Source of the DNA: Trueperaceae bacterium
GTDB taxonomy: Bacteria > Deinococcota > Deinococci > Deinococcales > Trueperaceae
NCBI GenBank assembly: GCA_035703635.1
Contig: DASSXV010000024.1
Location: 1 to 20,801 of the forward strand
Length of the DNA stretch: 20,801 nt
Direction: 5' to 3'
Position 1 is the first letter of the stretch. Each line of letters starts with the position of its first letter. The position numbers were made by a program, and so were the translations under genes. Positions 13,255-20,527 of this stretch are shown here, in pieces. The notes under the pieces are model-generated. The model did no database searches, had not been told where the DNA came from, and saw only the letters and a list, made by a program, of their open reading frames with translations.

Positions 13255-13278
13255 GGGTGGTTGCCGAACTGCTGCAAG

Positions 13279-13307
13279 TTGACCGTTGCGGGCGGCTCTG
13301 CTATCGT
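13279..13307 (+). promoter_or_regulatory. Sigma70-type promoter of the atuA-like operon
   Basis: TTGACC-N17-TATCGT with an extended -10 TG. Confidence 0.6.
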
Positions 13308-13317
13308 CGTGCAACAA

Positions 13318-13346
13318 CTGCTGTAAGATGTACAATCTTGCAACAG
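13318..13346. promoter_or_regulatory. Palindromic operator 1 (probable RpiR site)
   Basis: CTGCTGTAAGAT-GTACA-ATCTTGCAACAG, 10/12 inverted match; similar to 20370-20399. Confidence 0.6.
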
Positions 13347-13415
13347 AGCACTTCGAGGTGGGGACCCCTCTGTGAGAGAGCCAACTCCTCGACACGTTCG
13401 CGAGAGGACCGCACG

Positions 13416-14825
13416 ATGAGCAACAACGCCGGACCCACCCTGAGGTTCTTATGCCCGAACGGACACCTCGGCTTCGCACCCTTGAAAGTCGCGAGCTTCG
13501 AGCTGGGCGTCGCCACGCGGCCCGATTTCATACTGGCCGACTCCGGTTCTGACGACATCGGGCCGGGGCCCCTCGGAAGCGACACCTCGACGGCCCCGAA
13601 AGAATGGCAACGCCATGACCTCGAGCACATGCTGCTTGCCGCTCGCGAACTCGGCGTGCCGATGCTCATCGGCTCTGCCGGCGATACCGGCTCCAACAGC
13701 CGCGTCGACATGTACGTGCAGATGATCCGCGAGATCGCGGCAGATCACCAACTGGCACCGTTCAAACTCGGGTACTTCTACTCCGAAGTGCCCAAGTCTT
13801 ACCTGCGCCGCAAGATGACCTCGGGCGACGCCGTGACTGGCCTCGATGGCCGCGGCGACCTCACCCTAGAGGAGTTGGACGCCACTGACCGCATCGTCGC
13901 CGTTGCGGGCGTGCACCCGTACATCGAACTGCTTAACCGCGGCGCCGAGGTGATCATCGGCGGACGCAGCTCCGACGCGGTCATCTTCGCGGCGCCCGCC
14001 ATCCGCGCCGGCTACCCGGAGGACCTCTCCTACTACCTCGGCAAGGTGCTCGAGTGCGCGTCTTTCAACGCAGAGCCGTACGCAGGCAAGGAGAGCGTGA
14101 TCGGTGAGATCAGCGCCGAGGATGTGAAAGTCACCGCCATGCACCCTGGGCAGCGCTGCACCGTGGCGTCCGTGGCGGGGCACGCCATGTACGAGCGCTC
14201 CAACCCTTACTTCGAGTTCGTGGCGGGAGGCATGCTCGACATGACGAACTGCCACTACGAGCAGTTCGACGAGCGCACGACTCGCGTCACCGGCCCGCGC
14301 TTTGAGAAGGCAGAGAAGGTGCGCGTGAAGCTCGAGGGTTCGGGCAAGGTCGGCGAGCGCTATATGGGGTTCGCTGGCGTGCGCGACCCGTACACCATCG
14401 AGCGCATCGATGAGGTCATCGGCTGGGCGCAGCAGCAGGTGCGTGAACGCTTCGGCGACCCAGAAGACGGCGGCTACGAGCTTCACTACCAGGTGTACGG
14501 GCGGGACGCCATCATGGGCGAGATGGACCCGCTGCGCAGCCAGCCAGGGCATGAGCTCGGCATCATGGTCTTCGGCGTGGCGCCGACCGCGGCAATGGCC
14601 GAGGAGGTCACCCTCACCGGCACGCGCCAGATGTTCTACGCACGCCTCCCAGATGTCAAGGGCACGGCGGGCGGCGTGGCGTTCCCACTCGACGAGGTGA
14701 CACGCGTGACTCCTGCCTACCGTTGGACCCTAAACCACACCGTTGCGGTCGATGATCCCCTTGAACTCTTCGAGCTTCACACTACCGACGTGGCGGACGT
14801 TGTGGCGGGCGGTGCTGAGCGATGA
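13416..14825 (+). CDS. Acyclic terpene utilization AtuA family (DUF1446) protein
   Basis: PNGHLGF, DSGSDDIGP, PMLIGSAGDTG, IIGGRSSD, GKVLECAS, SVAGHAMYE, VKLEG, AGVRDP, PAYRWTLNH. GAGG SD before ATG 13416. Confidence 0.85.
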   Translation: MSNNAGPTLRFLCPNGHLGFAPLKVASFELGVATRPDFILADSGSDDIGPGPLGSDTSTAPKEWQRHDLEHMLLAARELGVPMLIGSAGDTGSNSRVDMYVQMIREIAADHQLAPFKLGYFYSEVPKSYLRRKMTSGDAVTGLDGRGDLTLEELDATDRIVAVAGVHPYIELLNRGAEVIIGGRSSDAVIFAAPAIRAGYPEDLSYYLGKVLECASFNAEPYAGKESVIGEISAEDVKVTAMHPGQRCTVASVAGHAMYERSNPYFEFVAGGMLDMTNCHYEQFDERTTRVTGPRFEKAEKVRVKLEGSGKVGERYMGFAGVRDPYTIERIDEVIGWAQQQVRERFGDPEDGGYELHYQVYGRDAIMGEMDPLRSQPGHELGIMVFGVAPTAAMAEEVTLTGTRQMFYARLPDVKGTAGGVAFPLDEVTRVTPAYRWTLNHTVAVDDPLELFELHTTDVADVVAGGAER

Positions 14826-15145
14826 GCAGCAAGAAGCTTTCGGAACTCGCCAAGACGGTGCGGAGCAAGAACGCGGGCGTTGACCGCATCACCTTCGACA
14901 TCTTGTTCCGCGACCGCGGTAACTACGAGCTCGTCAAGAACAGCGGCGTGCTCAGCCGCGCTTCGGTGGCGGCGCTATTCAACATCGACGCCAGCCGCAT
15001 TACGGACTTCGTGGAGTACGATCCCGCCTACGCCATCAAGTTCACCATCTTGCGCCTAAGGCCGAGCGGCAGCGCTGGCGACGCGGACATCTTCGGTGCA
15101 CAGCAGTACGCGCCGCTGCTCGACGTCGAGGTGCCAGTAGCCTGA
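14822..15145 (+). CDS. DUF4387 family protein
   Basis: LSELAKTVRSKNAG..ITFDILF, AIKFTI.R..SG..GDADIFGAQQYAPLL; ATGA overlap with the AtuA-like gene. Confidence 0.88.
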   Translation: MSSKKLSELAKTVRSKNAGVDRITFDILFRDRGNYELVKNSGVLSRASVAALFNIDASRITDFVEYDPAYAIKFTILRLRPSGSAGDADIFGAQQYAPLLDVEVPVA

Positions 15146-15169
15146 GCTTCGCCAGGTAGTCTTGGTGAT

Positions 15170-16030
15170 ATGAGCAGCGAGGAGCAGTCGCCGGAAGACC
15201 TGCAGGCGCGCCTTGACCGGGCTGCCGACCAGCTCACCCCGCAGGAGCTGCGCCTTGCCGCGCACTTGGTCGAGCAGCTGGAGCGGTGGGGTTACCTCTC
15301 AAGCACGGAGCTGGCGGCCGAACTCGGGGTACACCGTTCGACCGTCGTGCGCTTCGCGCAGAACATCGGCTTCAAGGGCTACCCGGAGCTGCAGGAGAGC
15401 GCCAGGGCCGAGTATCACAAGTCGTTCTCCGTGCCCCGCGAGCTCGTCATGAGCGACATGGGCGGCCCCGAGAGCTACACCGTTCAGGCCGTCTACCAGC
15501 GCGAGCTGCAGAACCTGCAACGGAGCTATCACCTCCTTGACATCGCCGCGCTCGAGGCGACGGCCAAGAGCTTAGCCTCGGCTAGGCGCGTGCTCCTGTT
15601 CGGCAGGCGTTTCTCTCACCCGATCGCCTTGCACTTGGCGTTGGTGCTGCGGACCATGCGTGACCGCGTCGAGGTCGCGCCGCCGCCAAGCGGTACGTCG
15701 GTTGACTTGCTCTTCGACTTGGGTCCGGAGGACTTCGTGCTCGTCGTGTCTCTGCGCCGGCACTCGACCGAGGTGCAGCGCACGCTCAGGTACTTGGCGG
15801 ACGCGGGCGTGCCAGTCGCGGTCCTGACGGACGCCAGCCCAGGCAACAATGGGCCGGAGGGCGCGAGCGTTTTGCGCGCCCACGTTGGCAGTACCGGCGT
15901 GCTGGACTCCTACACGGCGCTCGTCAGCCTCAGCCACGCGTTACTCACCCTCGCAGAGGCCGCGCTGCCCAACGCGCCAGCGCGCCTGGCGCAGGCGGAG
16001 AAGGCCTGGCAGCACTTCAACAAGGATTGA
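15170..16030 (+). CDS. MurR/RpiR family transcriptional regulator (HTH + SIS)
   Basis: LTPQELRLA, STELAAELGVHRSTVVRFAQNIGFKGYPELQ; SIS domain RVLLFG, DFVLVVS, VAVLTD. Confidence 0.9.
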   Translation: MSSEEQSPEDLQARLDRAADQLTPQELRLAAHLVEQLERWGYLSSTELAAELGVHRSTVVRFAQNIGFKGYPELQESARAEYHKSFSVPRELVMSDMGGPESYTVQAVYQRELQNLQRSYHLLDIAALEATAKSLASARRVLLFGRRFSHPIALHLALVLRTMRDRVEVAPPPSGTSVDLLFDLGPEDFVLVVSLRRHSTEVQRTLRYLADAGVPVAVLTDASPGNNGPEGASVLRAHVGSTGVLDSYTALVSLSHALLTLAEAALPNAPARLAQAEKAWQHFNKD

Positions 16031-16038
16031 GGCCGGGC

Positions 16039-16782
16039 TCAGGCTGGTTGGGCTGCGCGATAGTTCGCGGCAGCTTCGACGAAAGCGAGGAAGAGCTTGC
16101 GGAACGCCGGTTGCTCCTGGGTGAGCCACTCTGGATGGAACTGCGTGCCGATGCCAAAGCCGCGGTCGGCCTCGATCGCCTCGACCCACCCGTCTGTCGA
16201 GCGCGCCGTTACCCGCCAGTGGGGCGGCGGCTTGTCGACGACCTGGCGATGGAAGCTGTTGACCCGAACCGTTTCACCCACCCAGCCGGCGAGGGCGCTA
16301 CCAGGAGTGAGTTCCACGGCGTGCGTCGTGACCGTCGCTACTTCGGTCTGGTAGTGGTTAGCCGCGCCTGGAATTGCCCCGAGGTTACGCACGATGGTGC
16401 CCCCTAGAGCCTCTGCGACGGTCTGGTGGCCGCGGCAGATGCCGAGCAGCGGCATCCCGGCAGCCCACGCGGCGCGCACGAGGCTGACCTCCAGGTCGTA
16501 GCGTACCGGGTTGGTGTCACGCAGGCTCGGGTCGGGGTTGTCGTGGAAGTACTGGCCAGGCAGCCGGCCGCCGCCACTTAGTAGGAGGGCGTCTATGGCG
16601 CCGAGCACGTCCTCTAGCCTGCCGGACGAGTCTGGGTGCGTCGGGAGGAGCAGGGGCACGCCGCCAGCGTCGGCGACGGCCTTGGCGTAGCGCGCCGCTA
16701 GCTGGAAGCGCCACTCACCGTGTCCTTCTTCGGTCACCACCTCAGCGACGTGAACGGTTATCCCAATTACGGGTGCTCTCAT
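16039..16782 (-). CDS. Gamma-glutamyl-gamma-aminobutyrate hydrolase family (peptidase C26, PuuD-like)
   Basis: PVIGIT, AGGVPLLLP, LLLSGG, GICRGHQ (catalytic Cys), VNSFHRQ, QFHPE (His/Glu); ATGA overlap with the permease stop. Confidence 0.88.
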   Translation of the reverse strand: MRAPVIGITVHVAEVVTEEGHGEWRFQLAARYAKAVADAGGVPLLLPTHPDSSGRLEDVLGAIDALLLSGGGRLPGQYFHDNPDPSLRDTNPVRYDLEVSLVRAAWAAGMPLLGICRGHQTVAEALGGTIVRNLGAIPGAANHYQTEVATVTTHAVELTPGSALAGWVGETVRVNSFHRQVVDKPPPHWRVTARSTDGWVEAIEADRGFGIGTQFHPEWLTQEQPAFRKLFLAFVEAAANYRAAQPA

Positions 16783-17675
16783 GCGGCCTCCTCTGTGGTG
16801 CTCGTTACCGTTGCCGCCTTGCTGCGGTTCACGCGGCGGAAGCGTTGCCTGCTCTTGCTTCTCGGGTCGTAGATCTCCTGCAGGCGCTCGCCGAGCAGAT
16901 TGATGGCCAGGACGAGGATGAGGAGCGCGATGCCTGGGATGGTGCTCACCCACCAGGCGATGAACAGTACGCCCCTGCCGTCCGAGATCATCGAGCCCCA
17001 TGCCGGGATGTTGGGGGGAATGCCGACGCCGAGGAAGCTAAGCGACGCCTCCAACACCATGAAGTAGCCGACGCGCAGGGTGCCGAGCACCACCGTTGCC
17101 GGGAGGATGTTGGGGATGACCTCCCGGAACAGGGTTCGTGAATGGCGTTGGCCAAGCGCTCGTGACGCCTCGACGTACTCGCGCTCAGCCTGATCGAGGG
17201 TCTGCCCGCGCGCTAACCGGTAGAACTCGACCCAGCCTTTGAGGGAGAGGGCCATCACGAGGTTAGCGAAACCGGGGCCAAGGAAGGCCATCATGCCGAT
17301 GGCGAAAATCAGGTAGGGGAAGGCAAGCAGAAGTTCGGTGAAGCGGCCGACCACGGCGTCGAAGGCACCGCGGTAGTAACCGCCGAGGGCGCCGAGCACC
17401 GTGCCGAAGGTGGCTGTGATGGCCACGGTGACCACGCCGATCAGGAGACTGACGCGGGCGCCGTAGATGGTCCGCGAGAGGATGTCGCGCCCCAGCGAGT
17501 CGGTGCCGAACCAGTGTTGCGCGGAGGGAGGTTGCAGGCGCTGGCCGAGCGAGGTTGCCTCTGGGCCGTACGGTGCGATGAGGGGCGCGAAGATGGCCAT
17601 GAGCACGTACAGCGTGATGACAGCAGCACTGACGCTCCCCAGCGGAGTCGCGATGAGCTGCTTCACCCGCTTCAC
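16779..17675 (-). CDS. Peptide/nickel ABC permease (DppC/OppC-like)
   Basis: HWFGTDSLGRDILSRTIYGARVSL, EYVEASRALG, EASLSFLGVG, WGSMI; GTGA overlap with the upstream permease stop. Confidence 0.92.
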   Translation of the reverse strand: MKRVKQLIATPLGSVSAAVITLYVLMAIFAPLIAPYGPEATSLGQRLQPPSAQHWFGTDSLGRDILSRTIYGARVSLLIGVVTVAITATFGTVLGALGGYYRGAFDAVVGRFTELLLAFPYLIFAIGMMAFLGPGFANLVMALSLKGWVEFYRLARGQTLDQAEREYVEASRALGQRHSRTLFREVIPNILPATVVLGTLRVGYFMVLEASLSFLGVGIPPNIPAWGSMISDGRGVLFIAWWVSTIPGIALLILVLAINLLGERLQEIYDPRSKSRQRFRRVNRSKAATVTSTTEEAA

Positions 17676-18679
17676 AAGGAGATCCGCGGGTTCAGCAAGG
17701 TGTAGAGCGCGTCCACGACCAAGTTGGCGGCCACGTAGGTCAAGGCGTAGAGCATGACCGCTGCCTGCACCACGACATAATCGCGCGCGAAGATGGAACT
17801 CACGACGAGCCGGCCTAAACCGGGCCAAGCGAAGATCGTCTCGACGATCATATTGCCCCCAAGCAGTTCGCCGAACTGCAGGCCCGTGACGGTGAGGGCG
17901 GGGATGAGGGCGTTGCGTAAGGCGTGCTTGATGATGACCGACCACTCACGCAGGCCCTTGGCTCGCGCGGTAGTAACGAAGTCCTTGCTTAGCACCTCGA
18001 GCATGGACGCGCGGATGACGCGCGCCAGCACGGCCGCGAAGACCACGCCGAGGGTAATGGCGGGCAGCACGAGGTGCTTGAGGGCCACGCCGAACGCCCG
18101 CAGGTCTTTGGCTAGGAGTGTGTCTATGAGCATGAAGCCGGTGGTGCGATCGACGACCATGGTCGCCGCGATGCGGCCCGACGTGGGAAAGAGCTTGAGC
18201 TCGACGGCGAACAGCAGGATGAGTAGCAGTCCGAACCAGAACGCTGGCATGCTCACACCGACAAGTGCGCCGGAGAGCACGGAGCGGTCCACAATGGAGC
18301 CTGCGCGCAGGGCGCTGATGATGCCGACTGGCAAGGCGATCAAGATGGCGACGAGCACGGTGGCCATCGTCAGTTCGATCGTGGCCGGCAGGGTGTCGGC
18401 TATCAGCTTCACGACCGGCGCGTTCTTGACGAAGCTCACGCCGAGGTCTCCGCGGAGCACGCCTGCGAGGAACAGCGCCAGTTGTGTGATGAGCGGTTTG
18501 TCGAGGTTGAGCTGGTTGCGTAATGAGTCGATCTGTTGTTGCGTTACTTGGGTCTCGCCGAGCATGATCTCGACGGGGTCACCGGGAAGGAAGCGGAGGA
18601 ACATGAACGCGAGGACCGCGACCCCTATGGCGACTGGGATGGCGGAGAGCACGCGTTCGAGTAGCTTCGTCAGTCGCAT
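17672..18679 (-). CDS. Peptide/nickel ABC permease (DppB/OppB-like)
   Basis: LPGDPV, GDLGVS, PATIEL, DFVTTARAKGL, KHALRNALIP, VETIFAWPGLG; GAAGGA SD before ATG 18679. Confidence 0.92.
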   Translation of the reverse strand: MRLTKLLERVLSAIPVAIGVAVLAFMFLRFLPGDPVEIMLGETQVTQQQIDSLRNQLNLDKPLITQLALFLAGVLRGDLGVSFVKNAPVVKLIADTLPATIELTMATVLVAILIALPVGIISALRAGSIVDRSVLSGALVGVSMPAFWFGLLLILLFAVELKLFPTSGRIAATMVVDRTTGFMLIDTLLAKDLRAFGVALKHLVLPAITLGVVFAAVLARVIRASMLEVLSKDFVTTARAKGLREWSVIIKHALRNALIPALTVTGLQFGELLGGNMIVETIFAWPGLGRLVVSSIFARDYVVVQAAVMLYALTYVAANLVVDALYTLLNPRISL

Positions 18680-18727
18680 TCGTGTCCTTCGCCCCGGTTG
18701 CGGTTCAGCTTGCGCTCGTGCGGCGCG

Positions 18728-18765
18728 GCCAGGTGGCGCCCCAGGAACTTGGGGCGCCACCTGGC
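18728..18765 (-). other. Intercistronic 16-bp perfect hairpin after the binding-protein gene
   Basis: GCCAGGTGGCGCCCCA-GGAACT-TGGGGCGCCACCTGGC; no U-tract. Confidence 0.8.
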
Positions 18766-18775
18766 TGGCGTGTAA

Positions 18776-20287
18776 CTAGTTGGTGTCGTACCCGGCTTGC
18801 TTTAGGAGCTCCTTGGCCTTGGCGGGGTCGTAAGGGTAGGGAGCGAGATCCTGAGCGTAACCGAACCCGCTCGGCAGGAAGGGCGTTGCTAGCCGGTCGG
18901 CGTAGCCGCGGTAGATGTTGGTGAGAATGCTGTCCCAGTCGATGGCGTAGTTGATGGCCTGACGCACGCGGGTGTCGTTGAACGGCGCGGTGGAGTTGTT
19001 GAGTTCGATCTGGTACGCGCGCGTGCCGAGGGCGGTGTGCACGCTCACGCCGGGCACGCTCGAGAGGCGCTCCACGAGGTCGGGTGGGACGGCCTGGATG
19101 ATCTGGACTTCACCGGCAAGGAGGGAGGCGATGCGGGTGGATGCTTCCGGCATCATCTGCCACACGACGGCCTTGAGTTTGGGAGCGCCGTTCCAGTGGG
19201 TCTGGTTCGCCTCGATGACGACTTGCGCGTCGAGCGCGCCGCGGGCGTACACGAACGGACCGGAGCCGATGGGCGCGGCCGTGAAGGTGGCTACCCCAAC
19301 TTCGGTGATGTAGTCCTTGGGAACTATCTGGAAGTGGGTGAGGGCCTGGAGCACTAGTTCCTGAGGGAAGGTGTTCTTGTACACGAGGCGGACGGTGTTG
19401 GCGTCGACCTTCTCAGCGTGACTTATCGGGCCGAGCAAGCCAGCGCGTGGGCTGGAGGCGCCGTCGATGCCGCCCTCGGTGAGGATGCGGTCGAAGGTGA
19501 AGACGACGTCGTCGGCGTCGAGCACCTCGCCGTTGCTGAACTTGACGTCTGGGCGGAGGTCGAACTCGTAGGTTAGGGGGTCTACCACGCGCCACGCGGT
19601 GGCTAGGTGAGGCTGCACCTTGCCGTCGGCGCTTGGGATGGTGAGGGCGTCGAAGATGTTGCGCAGGAAGGCCTCGTTGTCGCGGTCGCGGTACATGGCC
19701 GGATCGAGGGTGACGAGCGCGTTCGTGCGCAGACCGATGACGAGGGTGTCGGACCCGTCTACCGTGGTGAGGTGGAAGTTCTCGCTATTGTCCGCAGCTG
19801 GCTCCCAGCCGTGCACGCTGTCTGAGGACGCTTCGATGTTCTGCAGCACGTACCCGAAGGCAAGGGGGGCGTCAGCTAGGATCTGGCGCTGCGCAGTCAG
19901 GTACGCGGCGGCGCGGGCGGAGTCGTCGATTGACGTGGAGGCAACGCGGAAGGCTTCGTCGACCACGTCACTCGAGTAGAAGGAGTAGTTGCCGCGGTCT
20001 TTTGTGCGGAGCTTGGGGATGGCGAGGTCGAATGGGTCGAAGTACGCGCTGCCCCAGTCGGTTGCCGAGGCCGTGCGGTTCCCGGCGATCATCTCCTCTT
20101 TGAGGACCGTGGACTGCCAGATGCGCAGCGAGGCGTCGATGCCGATGGCTTGCAGCTGCGCGACGATGGCCTGACCTTCGTCGCTGCGGTTCTCCGCGAC
20201 GTCAAGCACGAACGTTAGTTTCTCTGCGTAGGCCGATGCGAAGAGCAGCGCGGCCAAGGGCACTAACAACCACTTCAAACGATGCAT
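18776..20287 (-). CDS. Family-5 ABC substrate-binding protein, circularly permuted
   Basis: GAAGGAGG SD; signal peptide ending in ASAYA; TLDP, YEFDLRPDVKFSNGEVLDADDVVFTFDR, PIGSGPF, DTRVRQAINYAID, YDPAKAKELLKQAGY. Confidence 0.9.
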   Translation of the reverse strand: MHRLKWLLVPLAALLFASAYAEKLTFVLDVAENRSDEGQAIVAQLQAIGIDASLRIWQSTVLKEEMIAGNRTASATDWGSAYFDPFDLAIPKLRTKDRGNYSFYSSDVVDEAFRVASTSIDDSARAAAYLTAQRQILADAPLAFGYVLQNIEASSDSVHGWEPAADNSENFHLTTVDGSDTLVIGLRTNALVTLDPAMYRDRDNEAFLRNIFDALTIPSADGKVQPHLATAWRVVDPLTYEFDLRPDVKFSNGEVLDADDVVFTFDRILTEGGIDGASSPRAGLLGPISHAEKVDANTVRLVYKNTFPQELVLQALTHFQIVPKDYITEVGVATFTAAPIGSGPFVYARGALDAQVVIEANQTHWNGAPKLKAVVWQMMPEASTRIASLLAGEVQIIQAVPPDLVERLSSVPGVSVHTALGTRAYQIELNNSTAPFNDTRVRQAINYAIDWDSILTNIYRGYADRLATPFLPSGFGYAQDLAPYPYDPAKAKELLKQAGYDTN

Positions 20288-20369
20288 GCCGTCCTCCTTC
20301 ACCCACCGGCCTTGGACGGCGGGGTGGTGCGCCACCTGTCGTACGGCGGCCTCCAGCTATGTACACGTT

Positions 20370-20399
20370 CTGTTGTAAGAACATACGTGTCTGCAACAG
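20370..20399. promoter_or_regulatory. Palindromic operator 2 (probable RpiR site)
   Basis: CTGTTGTAAGAACATACGTGTCTGCAACAG; arms match operator 1. Confidence 0.6.
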
Positions 20400-20409
20400 C
20401 CGTTGTCAA
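20380..20409 (-). promoter_or_regulatory. Sigma70-type promoter of the ABC operon
   Basis: TTGACA-N18-TATGTT on the minus strand, overlapping operator 2. Confidence 0.5.
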
Positions 20410-20466
20410 CAGCGATTAGGCCTTGCGCACGGCGGCCCATGTGACTCGACTGAACCACGGCTGCGG

Positions 20467-20496
20467 TTGACCCTATAGGGACGAATTGCTTACACT
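20467..20496 (+). promoter_or_regulatory. tRNA promoter
   Basis: TTGACC-N18-TACACT, 31 nt upstream of the tRNA. Confidence 0.55.
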
Positions 20497-20527
20497 GACC
20501 AACGTTCGCGCGTCACGCGGGCATGTT

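What the first reader, a model, noticed from the sequence alone, without database searches (positions are those of the whole stretch)
18776..20287. Naturally circularly permuted family-5 (Opp/Dpp/Nik) substrate-binding protein
Seen in sequence: the mature protein starts with segments that normally form the C-terminal third of family-5 SBPs (GQAIVAQLQAIGIDASL; DWG...DP; GNYSFYSSDVVD; DDSARAAAYLTAQRQILADAP; VHGW). After a short linker (TTVDGSD, about nt 19760) comes the normal N-terminus (TLVIG..TLDP..IFDALT..PHLATAW..YEFDLR). The protein ends at YDPAKAKELLKQAGY, which usually lies about two thirds of the way in. Established: the canonical order in OppA/DppA/NikA. Inference: a clean in-frame permutation with a new signal peptide, possibly defining a subfamily with distinct ligand or permease interactions.
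Basis: partly seen in the sequence, partly recalled or inferred. Interest (0 to 1): 0.8.

Follow-up and report, generated by a model that had tools for sequence, protein, structure and literature searches.

The report
Circularly permuted peptide-type ABC binding protein
This gene encodes a real nutrient-binding protein of an ABC importer whose last third has been moved to the front of the chain; the rearrangement arose once, is kept by selection in many bacteria of several phyla, and appears not to have been described.

Summary
ORF 18776-20287 (-) encodes 503 aa: a Sec signal peptide, then the segment that forms the C-terminal third of family-5 (PF00496) binding proteins, a 7-residue linker, then the N-terminal two thirds.

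It is not a misassembly or a decaying fusion:
- All 120 best database homologues share the order.
- At least 75 species-representative genomes carry it, in Deinococcota, Bacillota (including the isolate Moorella mulderi), Desulfobacterota, Pseudomonadota and Armatimonadota.
- A 28.5-kb contig from another study spans the gene without a joint.
- dN/dS is 0.10-0.29, across the junction too.

Permuted proteins form one clade (SH-aLRT 97) nested among canonical-order relatives of about 40% identity, so a single origin is likely. The AlphaFold model is confident (pLDDT 92.9), and no solved structure found has this order.

The gene heads a DppBC-type permease operon. Peptidase_C26 and AtuA genes recur beside it across phyla, so a gamma-glutamyl-type substrate is plausible but untested.

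Five literature searches found no description of this permutation. The scan has noted other permuted family-5 proteins on other DNA, but none resembles this sequence. I class it as a new variant of a known kind.

The parts
18776..20287 (-). Whole coding sequence of the permuted family-5 substrate-binding protein (503 aa plus stop at 18776-18778)
   Evidence: ORF list. PF00496 scores 266.6 bits. Homologues of 503-505 aa align at about 100% coverage.
20225..20287 (-). Signal peptide, residues 1-21 (MHRLKW, a hydrophobic core, AYA before the likely cut). It has no cysteine, so it is Sec/type I and not a lipoprotein signal.
   Evidence: Read from the translation. N-termini of homologues are variable signal peptides, and 12 of 122 have a lipobox-like motif. 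No signal-peptide predictor was run.
19772..20224 (-). Residues 22-172: the segment that forms the C-terminal third of canonical family-5 SBPs
19751..19771 (-). Residues 173-179 (LTTVDGS): the linker that joins the old C-terminus to the old mature N-terminus
   Evidence: It lies between the two BLASTP segments. This region has no gaps in the 22 of 64 rows of alignment A1 that were printed. Model pLDDT is 88-96 for residues 161-190. dN/dS over residues 160-200 is 0.10-0.31.
18779..19750 (-). Residues 180-503: the segment that forms the N-terminal two thirds of canonical family-5 SBPs. It ends 3 residues after the AGY motif.
20293..20299 (-). Shine-Dalgarno sequence AAGGAGG, 5 nt before the ATG at 20287
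   Evidence: Read from the sequence. It supports the ATG start rather than the GTG at 20335.
20380..20409 (-). Promoter-like site TTGACA-18-TATGTT upstream of the gene
   Evidence: The consensus scan gives 10 of 12 matches. It found 3 sites where shuffles give a mean of 0.3. This is a consensus match only.
17672..18760 (-). DppB/OppB-type permease, next gene of the operon (likely start near 18682)
   Evidence: BPD_transp_1 E 3.5e-41 and BPD_transp_1_N E 2.9e-12
16779..17945 (-). DppC/OppC-type permease (the true start is probably internal to this ORF)
   Evidence: BPD_transp_1 E 6.7e-28 and OppC_N E 5.7e-10
16039..17001 (-). Peptidase_C26 (gamma-glutamyl hydrolase / class-I amidotransferase type), last gene of the operon (the true start is probably internal)
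   Evidence: PF07722 E 1.4e-52. The same gene follows the permeases in 5 of 5 Trueperaceae-family loci that hold downstream sequence. It also follows them in Moorella mulderi and a Desulfarculaceae MAG.
15170..16030 (+). RpiR-family regulator (HTH_6 + SIS), divergent neighbour
   Evidence: It recurs in loci L028, L030, L032 and L033.
13257..14825 (+). AtuA/DUF1446-family protein, conserved neighbour
   Evidence: PF07287 E 9e-20. It recurs in L030 and L032 and in L094, L066 and L050.

Best explanation
The gene encodes a functional, exported substrate-binding protein of a Dpp/Opp-type ABC importer. It has the ordinary cluster C (family-5, PF00496) fold in a circularly permuted chain order.

Compared with canonical relatives, the chain is opened in a loop of the second lobe, just after the conserved helix ending AGY (about mature DppA residue 343). 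The old C- and N-termini are joined by a 7-residue linker, and a new Sec signal peptide sits in front of the new N-terminus.

The rearrangement most likely happened once, in a canonical-order ancestor. The probable route is an in-frame tandem fusion of two copies followed by loss of both outer ends (inferred). The product then spread to several phyla.

Inferred working:
1. The protein is exported and binds its ligand between the lobes.
2. It docks on the DppB/DppC-like permeases encoded just downstream.
3. Transport is powered by DppD/F-type ATPases encoded elsewhere in this genome.

The ligand is unknown. A gamma-glutamyl peptide or amide is the best guess, at roughly 30%, because a Peptidase_C26 gene travels with the transporter.
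For: Swapped order:
- The swap shows against Pfam, PDB chains and the nearest canonical relative.
- The whole-protein model is confident (pLDDT 92.9, pTM 0.86).

Real and conserved:
- 120 of the 120 best homologues (49-99% identity) have the same order.
- 25 of 364 genomes of the phylum carry a full-length collinear copy. All 25 are in the window's own family, and one is a single-contig genome.
- 75 of the 80 kept loci from species-representative genomes match near full length, across at least 5 phyla. They include the isolate Moorella mulderi DSM 14980 and a complete Ca. Fermentithermobacillus genome.
- 17 runs from 11 studies hold at least half of the sampled words.
- A 28,508-base contig of run X9 spans 18600-20500 with 8 differences and no joint.

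Selection: dN/dS is 0.10-0.29 against 7 orthologues. The values are similar for both parts and for the junction.

Single origin:
- The 27 permuted rows form one clade (SH-aLRT 97).
- That clade sits inside a clade of 43 rows (support 100) that also holds 16 canonical-order rows.
- The junction has no gaps, and the C-terminus ends 0-7 residues after the AGY motif (AGF or AGI in two rows), in all 22 alignment rows printed.

Transporter role:
- DppB- and DppC-type permeases follow the gene here.
- They also follow it in relatives, where DppD/F ATPases are present in 5 of 6 loci from other phyla.
- This genome has only 2 DppD/F pairs for about 25 family-5 SBP loci, so shared ATPases are its norm.
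Against: - No experimental structure or binding data exist.
- No permutation-aware superposition could be run. The structural equivalence of the first third therefore rests on sequence homology (35% identity over 160 residues).
- The tree is a quick search with SH-aLRT only. It used 27 of 123 permuted and 50 of 86 canonical sequences, and its root is not inferred.
- dS values of 0.7-1.3 are near saturation, so the ratios are rough.
- The duplication-and-truncation route is inferred. No close intermediate was found.
- The ligand guess rests on gene neighbourhood only. Three of 6 loci from other phyla lack both Peptidase_C26 and AtuA.
- The raw-read run X21 laid no reads, so read-level coverage was not tested.
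Confidence: 0.9

Rival explanations
1. Assembly artefact: a chimeric contig or mis-join put the 3' third of an SBP gene in front of its 5' two thirds.
For: The window is a whole 20.8-kb contig of an 88-contig draft assembly. The genome holds about 25 paralogous family-5 SBP genes that could confuse an assembler.
Against: - The same order occurs in 120 of 120 best homologues from many sources.
- It occurs in a single-contig genome of the same genus, and in an isolate genome and complete genomes of other phyla.
- A 28.5-kb contig from a different study spans the whole gene with no joint.
- No second copy or remnant lies on this contig.
Confidence: 0.01
2. Decaying fusion: a recent deletion between two tandem SBP genes left a non-functional hybrid ORF.
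For: A deletion within a tandem pair is the likely way the permutation first arose. In-frame tandem family-5 fusions exist (P0197, P0157, P0175).
Against: - The frame is intact, with a signal peptide and a Shine-Dalgarno sequence.
- dN/dS is 0.10-0.29 in both parts and across the junction.
- 68 columns are invariant over 64 sequences down to 50% identity.
- The gene is the only SBP gene of a conserved transporter operon.
- The fold prediction is confident.
Confidence: 0.02
3. The permuted protein is mainly a sensor or receptor module (signalling) and not a transport SBP.
For: One relative, P0122 (1770 aa, 46% identity), carries the permuted module in front of SBP_bac_3, HisKA, HATPase_c and receiver domains. 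SBPs are known to feed signalling systems (review PMC8050422, seen only as a search listing).
Against: In the window the gene directly precedes two permease genes. The same holds in most of the 12 related loci whose genes were scanned, where the ORF picker sometimes missed one permease or the SBP gene. Five of the 6 loci from other phyla also have both ATPase genes. P0122 is a single case whose DNA was not seen, so it could be a merged gene call.
Confidence: 0.05

Closest known systems
Canonical cluster C / family-5 SBPs with solved structures: E. coli YliB/GsiB (1uqw), DppA (1dpp, 1dpe, 8z1z), GbpA/HbpA (3m8u), H. pylori DppA (6ofq), NikA, OppA
   Same: - Same Pfam family, PF00496.
- 28-31% identity.
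- Same operon partners, DppB/DppC-type permeases.
   Different: The chain order differs. The canonical order is N-terminal two thirds then C-terminal third, and here it is the reverse. None of the 60 best PDB sequences, by single sequence or by profile, aligns collinearly from the N-terminus. The new termini lie in the second lobe, at about DppA residue 343. From the alignment, the Asp of the WSGDNGDP motif of GbpA aligns with Ala81 here. That this Asp binds the peptide amino group in DppA/OppA is recalled and was not tested.
Nearest canonical-order relatives (database clusters P0125-P0132, unnamed metagenomic proteins)
   Same: 40-42% identity over the large part and 35% over the small part. 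They share motifs such as SPRKGLLGP, RGN and DWG. They fall in the same well-supported clade of the tree.
   Different: They keep the canonical order. The 6-residue C-terminal tail and about 6-residue mature N-terminal tail of P0125 correspond to the 7-residue linker here. Its continuous AGYPNGFEFELD stretch is where this protein is cut. Their gene neighbourhoods could not be seen.
TpMglB-2 (Tp0684) of Treponema pallidum, proposed 'Type Ic / Cluster Bc' (PMC4990184, passages read)
   Same: It is a natural, conserved circular permutation of an ABC-transporter binding protein that keeps the bilobed fold and ligand binding. It was first noticed because sequence searches failed to match one end.
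   Different: It belongs to a different SBP class (cluster B sugar binders) and has a different cut. Its permuted part is poorly conserved in sequence, and the authors consider acquisition from another gene. Here both parts are clearly homologous to one canonical relative. The authors' tethering idea is not favoured here: 12 of 122 permuted proteins have a lipobox-like motif, against 37 of 86 canonical ones.
S. aureus GisD of the GisABCD-Ggt glutathione importer (PMC10355420, passages read)
   Same: Like this system, Gis couples an SBP-dependent importer to a cytoplasmic gamma-glutamyl-cleaving enzyme.
   Different: The link was not tested here because I had no GisD sequence from any tool. The paper holds no word beginning 'permut' (0 occurrences). 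Its partner enzyme is Ggt (PF01019), not Peptidase_C26. Whether the cut point or the clade is the same is unknown.

Membership tests
Family-5 / cluster C substrate-binding proteins (Pfam PF00496 SBP_bac_5) | Significant match to the family profile | tested here: met
   266.6 bits against a cut-off of 32.4, E 4.6e-79, in 2 stretches. NCBIfam NikA, GsiB, DppA and OppA models match only in part and all stay below their cut-offs.
Family-5 / cluster C substrate-binding proteins (Pfam PF00496 SBP_bac_5) | Collinear chain order as in all solved members (N-terminal two thirds, then C-terminal third) | tested here: not met
   The two homologous segments are in swapped order. No PDB chain shown aligns collinearly. 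This is the variant feature, and the homology itself is not in doubt.
Family-5 / cluster C substrate-binding proteins (Pfam PF00496 SBP_bac_5) | The cluster C three-dimensional fold | tested here: inconclusive
Family-5 / cluster C substrate-binding proteins (Pfam PF00496 SBP_bac_5) | Export signal and genetic linkage to OppB/C- or DppB/C-type permeases | tested here: met
   The signal peptide was read from the sequence, with no predictor run. Permease genes follow directly downstream and do so in related loci.
Family-5 / cluster C substrate-binding proteins (Pfam PF00496 SBP_bac_5) | Binds a ligand and delivers it to the transporter | not testable with these tools
   This needs purified protein with ITC or DSF, and transport assays.
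Natural circular permutant (as defined in PMC3320104, seen only as a search listing) | The first part is homologous to the relative's last part and vice versa, within one continuous reading frame | tested here: met
   BLASTP against P0125 gives E 3e-78 and E 6e-28 in swapped order, in one ORF without stops.
Natural circular permutant (as defined in PMC3320104, seen only as a search listing) | The arrangement is inherited and kept by selection, and is not an artefact | tested here: met
   120 of 120 homologues, 75 of 80 genome loci, an independent contig, and dN/dS of 0.10-0.29.
TpMglB-2-like 'Cluster Bc' permuted sugar-binding proteins | Cluster B (type I) fold and homology to MglB | tested here: not met
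   Only PF00496 is matched, and all structural neighbours are cluster C proteins. This is an analogue and not a member.

The most novel reading that the evidence does not exclude
This clade is an undescribed topological subclass of cluster C binding proteins, a 'cluster C-c' by analogy with the proposed 'cluster Bc'. A single ancient permutation event moved both chain ends into the second lobe. The clade then spread by horizontal transfer through at least five phyla as part of a cassette for a gamma-glutamyl-type compound (DppBC(DF) + Peptidase_C26 + AtuA). It was also recruited at least once as the sensor module of a hybrid histidine kinase. Taken with the other permuted family-5 proteins that this scan noted elsewhere, it would mean that the family-5 fold is unusually prone to natural circular permutation.
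Probability: 0.45. Interest if true: 0.6.

Novelty: new variant of a known kind. Interest (0 to 1): 0.5.

Why it matters
- **Fold tolerance.** Family-5 binding proteins are among the most studied bacterial transport proteins, and every solved structure found here has the same chain order. A conserved natural permutant shows where this large three-domain fold tolerates new ends.
- **Engineering.** That knowledge helps biosensor design, which relies on permuting binding proteins and inserting domains into them.
- **Evolution.** The clade gives a clean case, with close canonical relatives, for studying how circular permutations arise and whether they change stability, hinge dynamics or docking on the permease.
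- **Annotation.** Profile and collinear-alignment pipelines see only two thirds of such proteins. They may score them as partial or chimeric.
- **Substrate.** The conserved link with Peptidase_C26 and AtuA genes points to an uncharacterised substrate that can be tested.

Tried and rejected
- **Misassembly** was rejected. The raw-read run X21 laid 0 reads, so it tested nothing.
- **Pseudogene or decaying fusion** was rejected.
- **Remnants of a duplication** beside the gene: the whole-genome search found no second match on contig C77. The gap to the next gene is under 100 nt.
- **Signal peptide derived from the helix before the cut.** BLASTP ran its alignment into the signal peptide (query 14-21 against P0125 348-355). 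The matching residues are not conserved among the homologues' signal peptides, so this is chance.
- **Tethering hypothesis**, as proposed for TpMglB-2, is not favoured. A lipobox-like motif occurs in 12 of 122 permuted and 37 of 86 canonical proteins. The regex is crude, and the two sets are not taxonomically matched.
- **Whole-model fold searches** with sequential aligners cover only about two thirds of the model (Foldseek TM 0.47-0.57; VIA range 176-503). This is expected for a permutant. They therefore cannot test the first third.
- **The isolated first-third model** gave only middling matches.
- **ESM Atlas look-up** returned only generic PF00496 clusters and no structure search.
- **Link to S. 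aureus GisD** could not be tested, because no tool gave me its sequence.
- **Literature.** Five searches found no paper linking circular permutation with PF00496, cluster C, OppA or DppA. The library holds open-access papers and bioRxiv only, so a description elsewhere is not excluded.
- **Scan index.** A look-up by sequence found no look-alike window.

Full report
**1. Observation**

The finding lies on the minus strand. The ORF 18776-20335 holds an in-frame ATG at 20287, preceded by AAGGAGG 5 nt upstream. From that ATG the product is 503 aa, the length of its closest homologues. It begins with a Sec-type signal peptide (MHRLKW, a hydrophobic core, AYA, no cysteine).

Pfam finds only PF00496 (266.6 bits), in two stretches. 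The main stretch is residues 223-502 against profile positions 1-280 of 368. Against solved structures the swapped order is explicit. For 6ofq_A, query 193-501 aligns with chain 43-370 and query 33-146 with chain 382-504. The next two chains behave the same way.

The clearest comparison is with the nearest canonical-order relative in the 50%-identity representative library, P0125 (513 aa):
- Query 180-500 aligns with 29-354 (42% identity, E 3e-78).
- Query 14-172 aligns with 348-507 (35% identity, E 6e-28).

Residues 173-179 (LTTVDGS, nt 19751-19771) sit between the old C-terminal motif (NFH here, NMH in P0125) and the old mature N-terminus (DTLVIG). The protein stops three residues after AGY. 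In P0125 that point is the continuous stretch AGYPNGFEFELD.

**2. Is it real?**

The window is a whole contig (C77) of an 88-contig assembly that holds about 25 family-5 SBP loci, so a mis-join had to be excluded. Several independent lines exclude it.

- All 120 best homologues in the 5.8-billion-protein collection (49-99% identity, 88-100% coverage, all but one at 95% or more) have the small part before the large part: 120 of 120.
- In the window's phylum, 25 of 364 genomes have a full-length collinear copy at E <= 1e-100. All 25 are in the window's own family (24 of 127 without the window's genome). The other five families have none (0 of 125, 19, 23, 68 and 1). One carrier is a single-contig genome of the same genus.
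- In species-representative genomes, the best 80 loci were kept out of 571 confirmed relatives. Of these, 75 match from residue 24 or earlier to residue 491 or later. Three more are cut by a contig end but still span the junction.
- By their record titles the carriers are Deinococcota/Trueperaceae, many Bacillota, Desulfobacterota, Pseudomonadota and Armatimonadota. The Bacillota include the isolate Moorella mulderi DSM 14980, a complete Ca. Fermentithermobacillus carboniphilus genome, Symbiobacterium, Caldanaerobacter and Limnochordales.
- Near-identical DNA is held by 17 runs (at least half of the sampled words) from 11 studies.
- When contigs were laid on the stretch, a 28,508-base contig of run X9 covered 18600-20500 with 8 differences, no gaps and no joints. 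Contigs of X1 and X14 also cross the linker. The raw-read run X21 laid no reads and tests nothing.
- Against seven orthologues (67-85% identity), dN/dS is 0.10-0.29 overall. It is similar for the small part, the large part and residues 160-200 around the junction. dS is 0.7-1.3, so the ratios are rough.
- An alignment of 64 members has 68 invariant columns spread over both parts.

**3. Anatomy and origin**

In the 22 printed rows of alignment A1, the junction has no gaps (pattern N-[LM]-H-[DE]-V, three residues, G-[GS]-D-[TS]). The C-terminus ends 0-7 residues after the AGY motif (AGF or AGI in two rows). The new N-terminus is a variable signal peptide followed at once by the strand L-[ST]-F-[VT]-L-D. 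One shared pair of breakpoints is what a single event predicts.

In the 50%-identity representative library only the first four hits (P0121-P0124, 43-46% identity) are collinear with the query. From P0125 down the order is canonical.

A maximum-likelihood tree was built with IQ-TREE (quick search, LG+C20+F+G4).
- It used 27 of the 123 permuted and 50 of the 86 canonical sequences that carried both parts. The two parts were put in the same order for alignment.
- Sixty-two further sequences classed incomplete, partial or long were left out.
- All permuted rows fall on one side of a branch (SH-aLRT 97).
- That group sits inside a clade of 43 rows (support 100) that also holds 16 canonical rows.

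Since all other family members seen have the canonical order, the simplest reading is one canonical-to-permuted change. The root itself is not inferred.

The usual route to such a change is an in-frame tandem duplication followed by truncation of both ends. In-frame tandem family-5 fusions do exist (P0197 with three copies, P0157 and P0175 with two). They are only 28-32% identical to this protein, so they show feasibility and not ancestry. No remnant of a second copy lies on the contig.

**4. Structure**

AlphaFold2 with the 64-sequence alignment gives pLDDT 92.9 and pTM 0.86, with pLDDT 88-96 across residues 161-190. Sequential aligners cover only the last two thirds, as expected for a permutant:
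- Foldseek gives TM 0.47-0.57 over about 340-365 columns.

So residue 180 corresponds to the first residue of mature DppA. The new C-terminus corresponds to about DppA residue 343, which by recalled domain limits lies in the second lobe.

Neither the single sequence nor the family profile finds a PDB chain that aligns collinearly from the N-terminus (best 60 of 105 shown in each).

**5. Function**

The gene is first in an operon with a DppB-type and a DppC-type permease and a Peptidase_C26 gene. An RpiR regulator and an AtuA-family gene lie next to it. No ATPase gene is present. However, the genome has only four oligo_HPY ATPase genes, that is two pairs on other contigs, for about 25 SBP loci. 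Sharing ATPases is therefore the rule here.

In relatives of the same family, Peptidase_C26 follows the permeases in 5 of 5 loci that hold downstream sequence. Six loci from other phyla were also scanned:
- DppD/F ATPases are present in 5 of 6.
- Peptidase_C26 is present in 2 (Moorella, Desulfarculaceae).
- AtuA is present in 3.
- Three loci have neither Peptidase_C26 nor AtuA.

The protein therefore works as the binding component of an ordinary Dpp/Opp-type importer. A gamma-glutamyl peptide or amide is a reasonable but untested guess for the ligand. YliB/GsiB (the top VIA match), GbpA and DppA-type binders are among the closest solved relatives. That GsiB and GbpA bind glutathione comes from entry titles and recall.

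**6. Comparison with what is known**

The protein is a homologue of family-5 SBPs but departs from their chain order. A natural precedent exists in another SBP class. TpMglB-2 of Treponema pallidum is circularly permuted, and its authors proposed the label 'Cluster Bc' and a tethering rationale (PMC4990184, passages read). Here a lipobox-like motif is rarer among permuted proteins (12 of 122) than among canonical ones (37 of 86). Tethering is therefore not an obvious driver.

Five full-text searches found no paper that links circular permutation with PF00496, cluster C, OppA or DppA.

Earlier notes of this scan report permuted family-5 SBPs in other genomes: archaea, Anaerolineae, gut Clostridia and a GisD-like clade. 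None resembles this sequence. The GisD paper does not mention permutation (PMC10355420, passages read), and I could not test that link. These notes are unverified leads.

**7. Verdict**

This is a new variant (topological subclass) of a known kind, and interest is moderate.

Noticed in passing
P0122 (database protein, 1770 aa; no DNA seen): A 46%-identical permuted family-5 module (residues about 21-511) is followed by SBP_bac_3 domains, HisKA, HATPase_c and a receiver domain. This could be a hybrid sensor kinase that uses the permuted SBP as its sensor, or it could be a merged gene call.
   Followed up: partly
P0197, P0157, P0175, P0146 (database proteins): These are in-frame tandem fusions of family-5 SBPs in canonical order. 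P0157 and P0175 hold two copies and P0197 three. P0146 (2754 aa) has three large-part matches and was not scanned with Pfam. P0175 also has a Cu_amine_oxidN1 domain. This is the kind of intermediate a duplication-then-truncation permutation needs, though they are only 28-32% identical to this protein.
   Followed up: partly
Whole genome G000: contigs C32 (3448-4675) and C16 (33397-34634): The genome has only four oligo_HPY-type ATPase genes (two DppD/F pairs), against about 25 family-5 SBP loci. Many Dpp/Opp-type permeases must therefore share ATPases.
   Followed up: partly
window 13257-18760, and loci L028-L033, L094, L066, L050: The cassette DppBC(+DF) + Peptidase_C26 + AtuA-family gene travels with the permuted SBP across phyla. 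The regulators differ: RpiR in the window's family, and GntR/UTRA in Moorella and an Armatimonadota MAG. This looks like an uncharacterised uptake-and-catabolism module.
   Followed up: partly
window 20361-20410 (-): Upstream of the gene, a promoter-like TTGACA-18-TATGTT site overlaps short inverted repeats (GTTCT-6 nt-AGAAC and ACACGT...ACGTGT). The repeats were seen by eye and could be an operator or chance.
   Followed up: no
L032 (G333:C2) 15625-17394: In one relative, a gamma-glutamyltranspeptidase gene (PF01019, E 3.2e-145) lies about 6 kb from the permuted SBP, next to another DppB-type permease gene.
   Followed up: no
L113 (Meiothermus rufus DSM 22234, NZ_AUHY01000105.1) 122-829: A 56%-identical match covers only query residues 167-402. 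It begins 121 nt inside the 4,581-nt contig and spans the junction region. I did not determine whether this is a permuted gene, a fragment or a canonical relative.
   Followed up: no
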